Notes under the pieces: generated by a model | Databases searched by the model: none | What the model was told of the DNA's origin: nothing | What the model saw: only the letters and a program-made list of their open reading frames with translations | From: a phage | DNA length: 64,000 nt | Direction: 5' to 3' (one strand) | Sequence record: NC_135729.1 | Shown here: one piece after another, positions 40,579 to 52,435 of the stretch | Position numbering within the stretch: position 1 is the stretch's first letter | Layout: the number at the start of each line of letters is the position of its first letter | Position numbers and translations under genes: made by a program

Positions 40579-41424
40579 TTATGCCAGTGCAGCCTCAAAA
40601 TCTTTCATCATATTTTGGAAAGTTTTTGCCTTACTTAAGGTAACACCGTGCTCTTTGGCGAAGGTTTGGAGTGCATCTTTTGAACCACTTTTGTCATCTT
40701 CGTTGTTAAGAGCTGCGGCCTGCTGCAGTATGGCATCAATATCACTGCGAGAAGATCTTGATTCTTGTGCCTGTTCAGGATCCTGCTCAGTGCCTCCCGG
40801 TGCAGCCGGATCTGGGGATTCTTCACCGTCACCACCAGGTTCAGTAGGACCTACAGGCGGCTCCGGTTCTGGTTCAGGCGGTGGAGCTATCGTAGAAACC
40901 AGTCCAAGATTTACAACCTGAGAACGTTTCTTAGGCCACTCAATGGTGAAAGTTTGGGTATCTTCTTCATAAACAATGTTGCATTGCTCATCGTTTATGG
41001 TCACTTTTTTAGGCATCCCTACAGGGTCCCATAGATGCCCCTCTGCCACGGAAACTTGGAAAGCAGCATCTACCTCTTTAAACACTGACGGGGTGAGGGT
41101 GATATTGACATCCCCGCTTTGCAGTGTTAAAGTGCTTTCATCAAGGTTCTCTGTGAAGAACAGAAGAATAACACCCATACGGATAGTTGAAATACCAGTA
41201 TCAATTGGCAGGCCTGTATGTTTTGCAATCTTCTCAAAGAAGTCTACAATCGTTCTACATGGATAGTGAACACTGCCAATAACGAATTCTGTTGGTGGCA
41301 GCAGGGCTGATAAACCAACATTGATTTCTGGGTTATATTGTGCTAAAAATTGATAAAAACTTAACTGATTGTTGAAAACTCTTAATAGCGGATCATACTC
41401 AACTGGATATACGGCTCTCTTCAC
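40579..41424 (-). CDS. virion protein with Pro/Glu-rich linker (281 aa)
   Basis: Linker PPPEPEPEPPVGPTEPGGDGEESPDPAAPGG; first gene after the capsid-gene terminator. Confidence 0.35.
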   Translation of the reverse strand: MKRAVYPVEYDPLLRVFNNQLSFYQFLAQYNPEINVGLSALLPPTEFVIGSVHYPCRTIVDFFEKIAKHTGLPIDTGISTIRMGVILLFFTENLDESTLTLQSGDVNITLTPSVFKEVDAAFQVSVAEGHLWDPVGMPKKVTINDEQCNIVYEEDTQTFTIEWPKKRSQVVNLGLVSTIAPPPEPEPEPPVGPTEPGGDGEESPDPAAPGGTEQDPEQAQESRSSRSDIDAILQQAAALNNEDDKSGSKDALQTFAKEHGVTLSKAKTFQNMMKDFEAALA

Positions 41425-48989: not shown

Positions 48990-49088
48990 GGTGCTAGGCG
49001 GTGGAATCGAACCACCTATGTATTCAACGACTACCTCGTCTATTTTCAGGATTAAAAATCCTCGCCCTTGCCAAAGGGCTTACCTAGC
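48990..49088 (-). ncRNA. atypical 99-nt tRNA-like element (anticodon uncertain)
   Basis: Good acceptor stem (GCTAGGT/GCCTAGC), D-arm (GCCC-TTTGGCAA-GGGC) and canonical T-arm (GGTGG-TTCGATT-CCACC), but a 4-bp anticodon-type hairpin (AGGA-TTTTTAA-TCCT) and about 31 nt before the T-arm; 3' end ACC. Confidence 0.4.
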
Positions 49089-50646: not shown

Positions 50647-50856
50647 TCAACAGATTCCGGCCTTATCCTTCCTGTCTGCGTATTCTTTAATCGCAACCTC
50701 ATCTGCATTAGTGACCAGGTATTCAAAGTAACTCTCAAGCTCCTCGTCAATGTCAGGAGACCAGCTCTTTTTCCTGTCAGTGTGAATTGCAGACTTGTTG
50801 AACTTATTACAGTTCTTTGCTACCGGGTTGTTCATTAAGCGCTCCTCAGCGTTCAT
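50647..50856 (-). CDS. hypothetical protein (69 aa)
   Basis: ORF overlapping the upstream gene by 11 nt; no motif. Confidence 0.35.
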   Translation of the reverse strand: MNAEERLMNNPVAKNCNKFNKSAIHTDRKKSWSPDIDEELESYFEYLVTNADEVAIKEYADRKDKAGIC

Positions 50857-51424
50857 AGTAAATTTTATTTAACATTACCTCATCCTTTGCAGAAAGGATA
50901 TCTAGATATGCATCACCGAATCTACCTGCAACAACCTCTGCATGATACATCACTTCGTTAATATCGTCAAGAGTGATAACTGGATGACCGTATCTCTCTG
51001 AGTATTGTCTCAGAGTGCGATGTAGGGAGTCATCATCATAGGCAGACTTTTTAATATCGCAAACACGACGAATAGCCTTGATGTCGAAAAACCCTGTACG
51101 ATACCAACCAAGAAAAAGGTTTCGTGCAGTGTCAACATCTACATCAATACCATTAAGAACCTTATCTACAAGATAGCTGTCATCCTTTGGACCAGCTTCC
51201 TTAGTGCGAATGTAGTTGCCATCTTTTCCAGGTGACATCTCCTTCTCATCACCAACCTGCATGCCATCATTTGGCGGTGTTAGCCACTTATCCGGATGCT
51301 TACGATCACGAGCGTTAGAATGATTACGCTGGAAACCAGGCTTCCACTTGAAAGTTTTCTCCATCTGTTCTTCATTCTGATAACGTTTTGCAATCTTTTC
51401 ACGGTCATCTTTGCGTGAACCCAT
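50846..51424 (-). CDS. hypothetical protein (192 aa)
   Basis: Charged protein; first gene downstream (leftward) of the non-coding hub; no motif. Confidence 0.4.
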   Translation of the reverse strand: MGSRKDDREKIAKRYQNEEQMEKTFKWKPGFQRNHSNARDRKHPDKWLTPPNDGMQVGDEKEMSPGKDGNYIRTKEAGPKDDSYLVDKVLNGIDVDVDTARNLFLGWYRTGFFDIKAIRRVCDIKKSAYDDDSLHRTLRQYSERYGHPVITLDDINEVMYHAEVVAGRFGDAYLDILSAKDEVMLNKIYYER

Positions 51425-51818
51425 AGCTGCCTCCTCTTCAAGTTATAGAAAAACTCACTGTATCACTTTGTAACGAGCTTTTCTATCAAACTGGTGCGAT
51501 TGCATTACCTGGTATAGTTCATATAGCTGTGGAGCGATTTAGGGGCCTTCTTGTCAGTTTCCACACATAAACTTCATCCAAGCTCGCGCGGGAGACTCTC
51601 AACCGACTCCTTACGGCGCTGGCAAGCTTTCGTCGGTGGTCCACATCAGTGCTCGGCCTTTGGCCTGCGCTATCGCTTCGCTCCCACACATGTTAACAGA
51701 CCTGCATGTATGCACTTCTGTTATTGTGTGCACCAAGGAGGCCCGGCATCTCGCCCCTCGTAGGCGAGTGCCAATGAAGGGCCGACACTACCTATAGTAA
51801 GTAATAATTTTAAAACAT

Positions 51819-51885
51819 GGTACTTAGGATCTAGTATATTCTACATAAGTTAAGTATATGTACTTAGTACCATAAGTACTAGATC
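51819..51885. repeat. nested inverted and direct repeats in an AT-rich segment
   Basis: GGTACTTAG-GATCTAGTA ... GTACTTAGTACC ... TACTAGATC, followed by AT-rich direct repeats (TATTTAGT / TATTTTAGT). Confidence 0.45.
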
Positions 51886-51928
51886 TTTTATTTTTTATTA
51901 TTTAGTTATTTTAGTTATATTCTTTATG

Positions 51929-52009
51929 TGTCCGTATCACGGACAGTTAGTGTCCGTATTACGGGCAGATGTGTCCGCGTGACGGACAGTAGTGTCCGTA
52001 TCACGGGCA
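51929..52009. repeat. array of four 17-bp palindromes, TGTCCGTAT(C/T)ACGGACA-type, at 21-22-bp spacing (operator- or iteron-like)
   Basis: Copies at 51929, 51951, 51972 and 51993: TGTCCGTATCACGGACA, TGTCCGTATTACGGGCA, TGTCCGCGTGACGGACA, TGTCCGTATCACGGGCA. Confidence 0.6.
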
Positions 52010-52084
52010 GTTACTGACCTCTGTTCCAGAGCGAACATAAAACATACGAATCCTTATAGTACAGATATTTAAGTTTTTACTGGT

Positions 52085-52435
52085 CTAACCAGTTGTTGAC
52101 ATTCGAATAACCTCTTCTGGTGGCAAAACTTTGGAAAATGTACATCTTTTACCTCTCCCTTGTGTGGATATTTCAACCACTCCTGCACATTCTAAAGTTT
52201 TAACGCACGCTGCTGCTTTTGTTTTCTTTATCCCAACATCTGCTGCAATTTTCCTTGTGCTTGGTGTGAAGCGTGAATTTCCTCCAAGCTTATACCAGTT
52301 GTGCAGGTAGCAGTATACGATCTTGTCATATAAGTCAAGAACAACAGCCTCCCCAGTTGTGTCATTCAAAACTTTTGACATAGACAGTATTTCAAGGGGG
52401 ACTTTAAGATATAGCAGCTTATCCCCATCTTTCAT
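52085..52435 (-). CDS. helix-turn-helix DNA-binding regulator (116 aa)
   Basis: Probable HTH segment STRKIAADVGIKKTKAAACVKTLECAGVV; gene ends about 75 bp from the palindrome array. Confidence 0.45.
   Translation of the reverse strand: MKDGDKLLYLKVPLEILSMSKVLNDTTGEAVVLDLYDKIVYCYLHNWYKLGGNSRFTPSTRKIAADVGIKKTKAAACVKTLECAGVVEISTQGRGKRCTFSKVLPPEEVIRMSTTG

What the first reader, a model, noticed from the sequence alone, without database searches (positions are those of the whole stretch)
51551..51790. GC-rich structured island in an otherwise AT-rich intergenic hub: candidate non-coding RNA
About 240 bp of sharply higher GC content with multiple nested hairpins (CTCGCC-cctcgta-GGCGAG inside GGCCC...GGGCC; GGCC-ttt-GGCC; GCGGGAG...CTCCC). 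The only ORF over it (51551..51763, plus strand) has an implausible composition and no ribosome-binding site. It lies upstream of a leftward operon, so it could be a leader, small RNA, ribozyme or acquired fragment.
Basis: seen in the sequence. Interest (0 to 1): 0.5.

Follow-up and report, generated by a model that had tools for sequence, protein, structure and literature searches.

The report
Conserved hairpin array beside phage origin
The GC-rich island is a real, conserved, non-coding array of stem-loops next to the probable replication origin of an rV5-like E. coli phage; parts of it also occur in small, apparently undescribed, satellite-like plasmids that probably depend on this phage.

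Summary
Window 51586-51790 has 56% GC, against 22-24% in the adjacent AT-rich stretch and 44% in the window. It folds better than shuffled sequence, matches no Rfam or Pfam family, and has no E. coli chromosomal match. The window is a Vequintavirus (rV5-like). In the most divergent relative found, the island is 85% identical, like the neighbouring gene, while flanking intergenic DNA is 34-62% identical. The island is a chain of different stem-loops, and most are followed by a C/A-only motif, (C)CCACACA. Two modules recur in 13-14 kb circular E. coli plasmids that encode a capsid protein, phage-like tail proteins and their own Rep and iterons. Five stem positions differ from the phage by compensatory double changes. 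In both phage and plasmids the order is array, then AT-rich DNA, then initiator repeats. CCACACA is the most over-represented 7-mer in the four plasmids tested, and in all seven complete plasmids its polarity flips at the array. Best reading (about 0.4): a strand-specific folded element of the replication origin that is shared with or hijacked by the satellites. Whether the active form is single-stranded DNA or an RNA is unresolved. Rivals: plus-strand sRNA, pac site, mRNA element, selfish palindromes.

The parts
51533..51546 (+). Left boundary box GCGATTTAGGGGCC. The core ATTTAG(G/A)GG is shared with all satellite plasmids.
   Evidence: Sequence comparison. The rest of 51525-51585 is only 62% identical in L124.
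51586..51645 (+). Module A. It has a 5' box GCGCGGGAGACTC, a helix CAACCGAC(51600-07)/GTCGGTGG(51632-39), a conserved 24-nt loop, and a 3' TCCACA motif (51640-45).
   Evidence: The same 60-nt module occurs in the satellites. Three helix positions changed on both sides, and the loop differs at one base.
51646..51690 (+). Module 2. It contains GGCC-TTT-GGCC (51655-65) and ends in CTCCCACACA. CTCCC (51681-85) can pair with GGGAG (51590-94), which would close modules A and 2 into one domain.
   Evidence: Nearly invariant in L124. There GGGAG becomes GGAAG and CTCCC becomes CTTCC. The CCACACA motif is at 51684-90.
51691..51735 (+). Module 4. A hairpin AACAGA(51695-700)/TCTGTT(51717-22) encloses TGCA-tgta-TGCA.
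   Evidence: L124 has ACAGC/GCTGT, a compensatory A-T to C-G change. An 18-nt deletion occurs in two phages.
51737..51788 (+). Module F. Three nested helices (GGCCC/GGGCC, GGCA/TGCC, CTCGCC/GGCGAG) are followed by GACAC.
   Evidence: Shared with satellite NZ_CP020521.1. All 15 pairs are kept in every sequence, and two pairs changed on both sides. In L124 the module is followed by CCCACAC.
51796..51925 (.). AT-rich stretch (GC 0.22-0.24) with long inverted repeats. Candidate DNA-unwinding element.
   Evidence: Not alignable with L124 (34% identity).
51928..52011 (.). Four direct repeats of 21-22 bp, each an internal palindrome TGTCCGT-N3-ACGGACA. Candidate initiator-binding iterons.
   Evidence: L124 has different repeats here, together with a diverged initiator-like protein.
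52085..52435 (-). 116-aa helix-turn-helix protein, a candidate replication initiator.
   Evidence: Hits PHROG families annotated as replication initiation protein (12838, 8102, 428, 270). Pfam HTH_36 scores 24.5 bits, just under its 25-bit cut-off. Annotated as 'replication initiation protein' in FV3 and FFH2.
50846..51424 (-). First gene to the left of the island (192 aa, function unknown).
   Evidence: Found only in this genus. A 50%-identical homologue sits in a DNA ligase/exonuclease-type gene cluster with no island upstream.

Best explanation
The island is a cis-acting, strand-specific folded element of the phage replication origin.

Shown:
- It is a conserved chain of different stem-loops. 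Most are followed on the plus strand by a C/A-only linker, (C)CCACACA.
- It lies on the far side of an AT-rich stretch from four phased 21-bp repeats and an initiator-like HTH gene.
- Seven complete 13-14 kb plasmids, which carry their own Rep-like gene and iterons, hold the same kind of array in the same order (array, AT-rich DNA, iterons). They share modules A and F with the phage.

Inferred:
- When the initiator melts the AT-rich DNA, the adjoining GC-rich inverted repeats fold into hairpins on the exposed strand. This would keep the region open and leave the linkers (CCCACACA, complement TGTGTGGG) single-stranded.
- The linkers would then serve as entry or priming sites for a replisome factor common to phage and satellites, for example the phage DnaB/gp4-like helicase. 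That would let satellites with unrelated Rep/iteron pairs use the helper's replication machinery.
- A plus-strand transcript running into the origin, as primer or activator, is a variant that is not excluded.
For: Conservation and structure:
- In the divergent phage L124 the core is 84.7% identical. The neighbouring gene is 84.2%, the spacer 62%, and the AT-rich DNA and repeats 34-35%.
- Compensatory changes: three pairs in the module A helix, two in module F with every pair kept in all four sequences, one in module 4, and one in the long-range GGGAG/CTCCC helix.
- Satellite-only modules (C, D, and the 5' box of A', A'' and A''') also keep pairing while their sequence changes.

Origin anatomy:
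- Four repeats of 21-22 bp and AT-rich DNA.
- An initiator-like HTH protein.
- In L124 the HTH protein (26% identical, still initiator-like) and the repeats are both replaced, while the island is kept.
- The satellites have a Rep-like 303-aa protein and iterons 120-500 bp to the right of the array.

Evidence for a DNA-level signal:
- CCACACA/TGTGTGG is the top-ranked 7-mer in the four satellites tested, at 10-13 times expectation.
- The motif lies in genes as well as spacers, regardless of gene direction, and its polarity flips at the array in all seven complete satellites.
- In the phage two plus-strand copies lie left of the AT-rich/repeat region, and seven of the next eight copies to the right are on the minus strand.
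- Stems are almost purely Watson-Crick, and about 10 of 14 perfect hairpins have 3-nt loops, mostly GNA. From established knowledge, GNA triloops such as d(GCGAAGC) are a hallmark of very stable DNA mini-hairpins.
- No conserved plus-strand promoter exists in the phages.
- The phage has a DnaB_C-type helicase; PMC3606486 describes rV5 gp230 as gp4/DnaB-like.
Against: - No experiment locates the origin. The rV5 paper found that GC skew tracks only transcription direction.
- There are no DnaA boxes nearby.
- The satellites already have their own Rep and iterons, so a helper-type origin element is not obviously needed.
- In most satellites the array ends in a good intrinsic-terminator-like hairpin on the plus strand. 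In L124 module F is followed by a hairpin and a T-run. Both fit an RNA gene better.
- A second non-coding region of the phage, outside the window, also carries one such module and many motif copies, so the modules are not exclusive to this locus.
- The N-terminal part of the helicase protein has no detectable primase similarity. The motif's resemblance to T7-type primer sequences is a lead recalled from memory only.
Confidence: 0.4

Rival explanations
1. The plus strand encodes a small structured RNA of roughly 200-350 nt. Its stable hairpins present repeated single-stranded CCCACACA linkers. It would work in trans as a sponge or decoy for an RNA-binding protein or nuclease, or for Rho, and would benefit both the phage and its satellites.
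For: - The architecture of hairpins with repeated unpaired motifs resembles protein-sequestering sRNAs.
- A terminator-like T module ends the array on the plus strand in most satellites, and L124 has a hairpin plus T-run.
- G.T wobbles are nearly all on the plus strand.
- RNA-repair genes (PNK, RNA ligase) and tRNA genes are neighbours.
- The related phage phiTE carries an RNA antitoxin mimic (established knowledge, Blower et al. 2012).
Against: - No sigma-70-type promoter was found in the phage, and the rV5 paper predicted none here.
- The one extended -10-like site (51508-17) is lost in four relatives.
- Candidate promoters in the satellites are weak and inconsistent.
- The motif is also enriched and polar inside satellite genes, regardless of transcription direction.
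- One module sits inverted beyond the terminator in L010 and L040.
- There are almost no internal G.U pairs.
- No convincing antisense target for the module A loop was found.
Confidence: 0.2
2. The island is the packaging (pac) recognition site of the phage terminase. Satellites that lack a terminase copy it so that they get packaged.
For: - No terminase was recognised among the satellite proteins annotated or scanned (five of the fifteen were not scanned).
- The island modules are the longest non-coding sequences shared between satellite and phage.
- The element is single-copy and sits about 4 kb upstream of the large terminase gene in the same leftward block.
Against: - Double-stranded pac sites conserve sequence, not intrastrand pairing. 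Here stems change with compensation, and the module set differs between satellites.
- The 13-nt 5' box is replaced in the satellites L127 and L128.
- Another shared non-coding 24-mer exists (FFH2 105410-105433) and could be the pac site instead.
- The neighbouring 192-aa protein looks like part of a DNA-metabolism gene cluster rather than a small terminase.
Confidence: 0.1
3. The island works on the minus strand, as an intercistronic part of the long leftward mRNA. It would be a processing or stability element, or a leader for the 192-aa gene.
For: - The rV5 paper places the region inside one leftward transcription unit (genes 27-81) driven from P081, with no terminator predicted in between. 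The minus strand is therefore probably transcribed.
- Because the stems are Watson-Crick, the minus strand folds as well.
Against: - All G.T wobbles but one become A.C mismatches on the minus strand.
- In the satellites the strong promoter of the leftward operon lies between the array and the operon, so the array is outside that mRNA.
- A 50%-identical homologue of the downstream gene has no such leader.
Confidence: 0.1
4. The modules are selfish, REP-like palindromic cassettes that insert or recombine at the CCCACACA junction. They would persist in non-coding regions without a specific function for the phage.
For: - Modules are shuffled, gained and lost between satellites and are bounded by the same short motif on both sides.
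- A C-type module also occurs in the second non-coding region of the phage.
Against: - The phage island is conserved as strongly as coding DNA across the genus, and it keeps the same module order.
- The two small proteins annotated as transposase-like have no Pfam hit, so nothing supports a HUH/Y1-type transposase.
- No arrays of adjacent mini-hairpins occur elsewhere in the phage genome.
Confidence: 0.1

Closest known systems
Iteron-type replication origins with an adjacent GC-rich or palindromic segment (lambda ori, RK2 oriV, RSF1010 oriV with ssiA/ssiB)
   Same: The order is the same: initiator gene, phased direct repeats, AT-rich unwinding region, then a GC-rich structured segment. In RSF1010, hairpins on specific strands beside the iterons act as priming sites (established knowledge).
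   Different: This element is a 200-nt chain of several unrelated hairpins separated by a C/A-only 8-mer, and there are no DnaA boxes. The same array serves replicons with unrelated initiator/iteron pairs. Origin activity has not been shown.
Single-strand initiation signals and single-strand origins (G4-type ssi, sso of rolling-circle plasmids, M13 minus-strand origin)
   Same: Both are non-coding, orientation-specific and have extensive intrastrand pairing. Both form very stable mini-hairpins (GNA triloops occur at the G4/phiX174 origins). Both behave as exchangeable cassettes between replicons.
   Different: There is no sequence similarity and no Rfam-type model. The carrier is a 137-kb double-stranded virulent phage. 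The short motif is also spread, with polarity, over whole satellite genomes. Priming has not been tested.
Protein-sequestering sRNAs (CsrB/RsmZ, CrcZ)
   Same: Both have a series of stable hairpins that display a repeated short unpaired motif. In the satellites the array ends in a terminator-like hairpin.
   Different: The motif is CCCACACA, not GGA or A-rich. No conserved promoter was found, no binding protein is known, and the motif also behaves as a DNA-level signal.
Cis sites shared by helper phages and their satellites (the P2 cos site carried by satellite P4)
   Same: A non-coding helper sequence is carried by a small element that also encodes morphogenetic proteins.
   Different: What is kept here is structure plus a short motif, not a contiguous recognition sequence. 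The helper is a virulent myovirus, and the satellites are extrachromosomal plasmids with their own Rep.
Type III antitoxin RNA arrays and the pseudo-ToxI of phage phiTE (Vequintavirinae)
   Same: Both are non-coding repeat-like RNA loci in a related phage subfamily, with units ending in a fixed short motif.
   Different: The units here are all different, not tandem copies, and no ToxN-type partner or cleavage motif is evident.

Membership tests
Any Rfam 15 RNA family (including ribozymes, riboswitches, known phage RNAs) | Score at or above the family's gathering threshold | tested here: not met
   Only tRNAs pass in the window. In the permissive scan of 51400-52100 the best match (rli43) scores 22.9 bits against a threshold of 100. 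Nothing passes in four satellite loci (L003, L004, L006, L010) or L124.
Iteron-type replication origin | Three or more phased direct repeats of about 17-22 bp | tested here: met
   Four copies with 21-22 bp spacing at 51928-52011.
Iteron-type replication origin | Adjacent AT-rich unwinding region | tested here: met
   GC 0.22-0.24 at 51800-51949.
Iteron-type replication origin | Cognate initiator gene next to the repeats, changing together with them | tested here: inconclusive
   The 116-aa HTH protein hits 'replication initiation protein' PHROGs. Apart from its own family, the hits are weak (E = 1e-5 to 5e-3), and HTH_36 scores just under the Pfam cut-off. In L124 both the protein (26% identity) and the repeats are replaced. 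Binding was not tested.
Iteron-type replication origin | Initiation of DNA synthesis at the site | not testable with these tools
   This needs marker-frequency analysis or 2D gels. The rV5 paper could not place the origin by skew.
Single-strand initiation / single-strand origin signals | Extensive conserved intrastrand pairing in a non-coding segment beside an origin | tested here: met
   Covariation. Adjacent to repeats in the phage and to iterons in the satellites.
Single-strand initiation / single-strand origin signals | Function confined to one strand | tested here: inconclusive
   G.T wobbles are nearly all on the plus strand, and motif polarity is fixed. However, both strands fold about equally well.
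Single-strand initiation / single-strand origin signals | Primer synthesis by primase or RNA polymerase on the folded single strand | not testable with these tools
   Requires biochemistry.
Trans-acting sRNA gene | Own promoter and intrinsic terminator on the same strand | tested here: inconclusive
   A terminator-like T module is present in the satellites. No conserved promoter exists in the phages.
Type III antitoxin-like RNA array | Tandem near-identical repeat units | tested here: not met
   Tandem Repeats Finder reports only the AT-rich DNA and the 21-bp repeats, nothing in 51540-51795.
pac site shared by helper and satellite | Same non-coding sequence in the helper and in satellites lacking a terminase | tested here: inconclusive
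   Modules A and F are shared. However, the sequence boxes vary between satellites, and a second shared 24-mer exists.
pac site shared by helper and satellite | Packaging series starts at the site | not testable with these tools
   No read or virion-end data are available.
Protein-coding gene | ORF conserved in relatives, with family or RBS support | tested here: not met
   No Pfam hit for the two ORFs tested. The ORF pattern differs in L124. Substitutions fall in paired stem positions rather than in codon periodicity.

The most novel reading that the evidence does not exclude
The hairpin-plus-CCCACACA modules could be an undescribed shared 'access code'. Under this reading, a structure-plus-motif signal is read by one factor of the virulent Vequintavirus (replisome, terminase or an RNA-binding protein). 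A previously unrecognised family of plasmid-borne, capsid-encoding satellites has copied, shuffled and multiplied this signal across their genomes to parasitise the phage. The island would then be both the phage's own essential cis element and its point of vulnerability.
Probability: 0.3. Interest if true: 0.85.

Novelty: new variant of a known kind. Interest (0 to 1): 0.65.

Why it matters
- rV5-like phages are widely used for E. coli O157 typing, biocontrol and therapy, yet their origin of replication and packaging signal are unknown. This element and its neighbours give a concrete, testable candidate.
- The comparison also brought to light 13-14 kb circular plasmids, present in 7 of 5,426 complete E. 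coli genomes. They look like satellites of a virulent myovirus and share cis elements with it.
- Nothing in the held literature library describes them as satellites. The only paper that cites one of the accessions is a comparative genome study.
- If the modular hairpin-motif array is what the satellites exploit, it offers a handle on helper-satellite specificity. It could also be a new type of structured nucleic-acid signal.

Tried and rejected
- **Known RNA family:** Rfam at gathering and permissive thresholds found nothing.
- **Host-derived fragment:** no E. coli chromosomal match.
- **Coding small ORFs:** no Pfam family for the two ORFs tested, and the ORF pattern is not conserved.
- **More distant phage homologues:** the neighbouring gene and the island are confined to the genus. 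The phage collection and IMG/VR gave one useful divergent contig. A 50%-identical homologue of the neighbouring gene lacks the island.
- **Metagenome pattern scan:** mostly chance hits in GC-rich soil DNA. Only 5 of 103 were real.
- **CCACACA as a 5'-UTR element:** 9 of 55 copies lie near a gene start, against a 14% background.
- **CCACACA as a DnaA box, or E. coli Chi as the polar signal:** no DnaA boxes near the island; no Chi site in the satellites.
- **ATTTAGRGG as a general phage promoter:** only 3 copies in the window.
- **Antisense target for the conserved module A loop:** only one near-match that is plausibly chance.
- **Choosing the strand by free energy:** uninformative, because the G/U-rich minus strand always folds lower.
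- **Scans for hairpin+motif units and for arrays of adjacent mini-hairpins elsewhere in the phage:** the first was too noisy to use and the second gave 7 clusters against 4 expected.
- **T7-like primase domain in the helicase protein:** not detectable by sequence.
- **'Transposase-like' neighbours as HUH enzymes:** no Pfam support.
- **The predicted helix GGAGCGA(51531)/TCGCTCC:** not conserved in L124.
- **Literature searches for a Vequintavirus satellite or non-coding RNA:** nothing relevant.

Full report
**What the window is.** The region 51430-51900 matches 118 phage records at 90-99.6% identity, all of them rV5-like myoviruses of the genus Vequintavirus. In the reference relative FFH2 (NC_024134) the island lies at about 64.7-65.0 kb. 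That places it inside the long leftward block that runs through tRNA genes, the large terminase gene and the structural genes. It is also 1.7 kb from the switch to the rightward nucleotide-metabolism block. The window shows the same layout: seven tRNA genes at 48.7-49.6 kb and a 192-aa gene at 50846..51424(-). To the right follow the island, an AT-rich stretch, four repeats, and a 116-aa HTH gene at 52085..52435(-).

**Checking the observation.**
- GC content is 0.55-0.59 over 51550-51799. It drops to 0.22-0.24 immediately to the right, and the window average is 0.44.
- Folding is better than dinucleotide shuffles on both strands. As RNA z = -2.66 and -2.46, and as DNA z = -2.45 and -2.91.
- No Rfam family matches at the curated thresholds, and the permissive scan gives only noise.
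- The named ORF is not the only one. Five ORFs of 31-70 aa overlap the island. The two tested have no Pfam hit, and the ORF pattern is different in a divergent relative.
- No E. coli chromosome carries anything similar, so the island is not a host gene remnant.

**Conservation.** Within GenBank phages the island varies little. One IMG/VR contig (L124) is more distant; its copy of the neighbouring gene is 83% identical in protein. Against it, nucleotide identity by segment is as follows:

| Segment | Identity to L124 |
|---|---|
| 192-aa gene | 84.2% |
| Island core 51586-51790 | 84.7% |
| Spacer 51525-51585 | 62% |
| AT-rich stretch | 34% |
| Repeats | 35% |

By eye, modules A, 2 and F are more conserved than module 4 within the core. 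The island is therefore conserved like coding DNA, while the surrounding intergenic DNA is not.

L124 also supplies compensatory changes:
- The module 4 stem AACAGA/TCTGTT becomes ACAGC/GCTGT.
- In contrast, the helix GGAGCGA/TCGCTCC predicted by minimum free energy is not conserved.

**The key lead: satellite-like plasmids.** A sensitive search of 5,426 complete E. coli genomes hit only small plasmids. Following these up gave seven complete circular plasmids of 13.2-13.9 kb in that set, all extrachromosomal. One of them is a 39.6-kb record with three copies of the matched sequences. Two further plasmids came from PLSDB and three contigs from metagenomes. These elements have the following features:
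- They encode their own major capsid protein.
- They encode baseplate and neck proteins that are 48-54% identical to those of the phage in the window, and a tape-measure protein with short, weaker matches to the phage's.
- They encode HTH regulators and a 303-aa protein with weak similarity to replication initiators.
- They carry classic iterons: six 19-nt copies at 23-bp phasing in one plasmid, and a different iteron sequence in another.
- No terminase was recognised among the proteins annotated or scanned.

They look like plasmid-borne satellites of Vequintavirus. Nothing in the literature library describes them as such. The only paper citing one of the accessions is a comparative genome study.

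**Anatomy of the element.** Aligning the plasmid arrays with the island shows a modular design. Each module is one or a few stem-loops. Most modules end on the plus strand in (C)CCACACA or TCCACA; module 4 and the window's own copy of module F do not. The window has four modules:
- **A** (51586-51645)
- **2** (51646-51690)
- **4** (51691-51735)
- **F** (51737-51788)

The satellites carry shuffled sets:
- **A**, or the variants A', A'' and A''' with a different 5' hairpin and main helix.
- **B**.
- **C**: three adjacent mini-hairpins, in at least six versions that co-vary.
- **D** and **E**.
- **F**, in one plasmid only.
- **T**: usually a terminal 10-bp hairpin followed by TTTCATTT.

Between the phage and satellite copies of module A, three helix pairs differ on both sides, while the 24-nt loop differs at one base. 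For module F the counts were made after one loop C was removed from the satellite copy, so that the stems stay in register. Every one of the 15 pairs is kept in all four sequences, and two pairs changed on both sides. Pairing collapses when the partner columns are slid by one to three positions. These numbers rest on few sequences, but the same pattern recurs in every module family.

**Which strand, and which molecule.**
- Stems are almost purely Watson-Crick. The few G.T wobbles lie on the plus strand: the first hairpin of module C, the base of the satellite module A helix, module D in L126, the 5' hairpin of A''', and the AGTGC/GCGCT stem of module 2. There is one polymorphic exception, in phage Gotham. 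The plus strand is therefore the likelier folded strand.
- About 10 of 14 perfect hairpins have 3-nt loops, mostly GAA, GTA or GGA. From established knowledge, GNA triloops closed by C-G are a signature of very stable DNA mini-hairpins and occur at the phiX174/G4 origins. Triloops are uncommon in structured RNAs.
- Free-energy comparison of the two strands is uninformative.
- No sigma-70 promoter or terminator was found in 51300-52200. The rV5 paper predicted none there and places the region inside the leftward unit of genes 27-81. An extended -10-like TGGTATAGT at 51509-17 is lost in four relatives.
- In favour of an RNA, the T module is a credible plus-strand terminator, and L124 has a small hairpin plus T-run after module F.

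**The motif behaves as a DNA-level, polar signal.**
- CCACACA occurs 17 times in the 13.7-kb plasmid against 1.2 expected.
- In an unbiased count it is the most over-represented 7-mer in the four complete satellites tested, at 10-13 times expectation.
- It lies in genes as well as in spacers, irrespective of gene direction.
- In all seven complete satellites it is on the plus strand in the array. Over the next roughly 8 kb it is then predominantly on the minus strand.
- In the phage it is about 2.2-fold enriched in the window (25 copies against 11 expected) and about 3.9-fold genome-wide on a composition-only expectation.
- In the phage genome, two plus-strand copies sit in the island, and seven of the next eight copies to the right are on the minus strand.
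- It is not enriched near gene starts, it is not a DnaA box, and it is unrelated to Chi.

**Origin-like context.**
- The four 21-22-bp repeats are internally palindromic and phased at two helical turns.
- The adjacent 116-aa HTH protein hits several PHROG families annotated as replication initiators.
- In L124 this protein is replaced by a 26%-identical homologue that still looks initiator-like, and the repeats are replaced as well, while the island stays. Joint replacement of protein and repeats is what a cognate initiator-iteron pair would show.
- The left-to-right order (array, AT-rich DNA, initiator repeats) is the same in phage and satellites, although at least four different iteron types are involved.
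- The common partner of the array must therefore be something other than the initiators. The phage replisome is a candidate; it includes a 692-aa protein with a DnaB_C helicase domain (PMC3606486). A host factor is the alternative.

**Most likely mechanism, and its weaknesses.** I favour, at about 0.4, a cis-acting origin element. In this model the melted AT-rich DNA lets the GC-rich inverted repeats fold on the exposed strand. That would hold the origin open and present the unpaired C/A linkers, or their G/T complements, as entry or priming sites. Satellites would plug into the same machinery.

- Shown: the structure, the conservation, the sharing with satellites, the positional logic and the motif polarity.
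- Against: the terminator-like ends, the satellites' own Rep and iterons, and the lack of any origin mapping. In addition, a second non-coding region of the phage (FFH2 104.35-106.9 kb, outside the window) contains one C-type module and nine motif copies.

The rivals are a trans-acting plus-strand sRNA (0.2), a pac site (0.1), a minus-strand mRNA element (0.1) and selfish palindromic cassettes (0.1). The motif resembles T7 primer sequences (ACCC, ACCA, ACAC), and GACAC or GACCC follows module F. This is a lead from memory. No primase domain could be confirmed.

**Verdict.** The finding is real and more interesting than a generic 'GC-rich hairpin'. It is an unannotated, conserved, modular structured element with no known family, sitting at a probable origin and shared with apparently undescribed satellites of a virulent phage. 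Its chemistry (DNA or RNA) and its reader remain open. I classify it as a new variant of a known kind (an origin-associated structured signal), with a substantial chance that it is something more unusual.

Noticed in passing
L003 (NZ_CP020521.1) whole record; also L010, L126, L127, L128, L031, L040: These 13.2-13.9 kb circular E. coli plasmids occur in 7 of 5,426 complete genomes and never in a chromosome. They encode a capsid protein, phage-like baseplate, neck and tape-measure proteins, HTH regulators, and a Rep-like protein with iterons. They look like a family of plasmid-borne satellites of Vequintavirus; nothing in the held literature describes them as such.
   Followed up: partly
L003 2560-2628 versus window 40729-40763: The satellite has a consensus TTGACA-N17-TATAAT promoter. 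Its transcript start is 91% identical over 35 nt to the window plus strand, which makes it antisense to the phage gene 40579..41424(-). This is a candidate satellite antisense RNA against a helper mRNA.
   Followed up: partly
FFH2 (L123) 104350-106900, outside the window: This second non-coding region is probably the one the rV5 paper labels 'non-coding'. It starts with a C-type module whose last hairpin (GTGCT-GGA-AGCAC) is identical to one in the satellites L010 and L040. It holds nine CCACACA motifs within 4.3 kb and several GACATAAT repeats.
   Followed up: partly
FFH2 105410-105433 versus L003 519-542, L010 3750-3773, L031 6021-6044, L040 10324-10347: The 24-nt sequence GATATTTGAGAATTGTTA(G/T)AAGAA matches at 23 of 24 positions between the phage's second non-coding region and the non-coding DNA of the four complete satellites compared. 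It is another candidate shared cis site, possibly the pac site.
   Followed up: no
window 51443-51492: A 13-bp inverted repeat TATAGAAAAACTC...GAGCTTTTCTATCA lies in the well-conserved region just upstream of the 192-aa gene. It could be an operator or a leader hairpin.
   Followed up: no
window 51497-51515 versus L001 2909-2928: A 19-nt segment with a palindromic core (CAGGTAATGCAAT(C/T)GCAC) lies left of the array in both phage and satellites, but in opposite orientation. It is probably a protein-binding site.
   Followed up: no
window 48990-49088: ARAGORN reports a 99-nt tRNA-like gene with an odd 4-base anticodon call. Other records annotate the equivalent gene as a 97-nt tRNA-Lys(TTT).
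   Followed up: no
NZ_CP043822.1 (39,610 bp): This plasmid carries three copies of the matched satellite sequences and is about three satellite unit lengths long, suggesting a multimer or an assembled concatemer.
   Followed up: no
MG0656xx records: Eighteen records labelled 'Campylobacter phage' (at least one flagged UNVERIFIED) are 98-99.6% identical to E. coli rV5-like phages across this region. The host labels are probably wrong.
   Followed up: no
FFH2 whole genome: GGTGGTG/CACCACC-type 7-mers are 4-5-fold over-represented with strong strand skew (13 plus, 39 minus). The three Chi sites are all on one strand.
   Followed up: no
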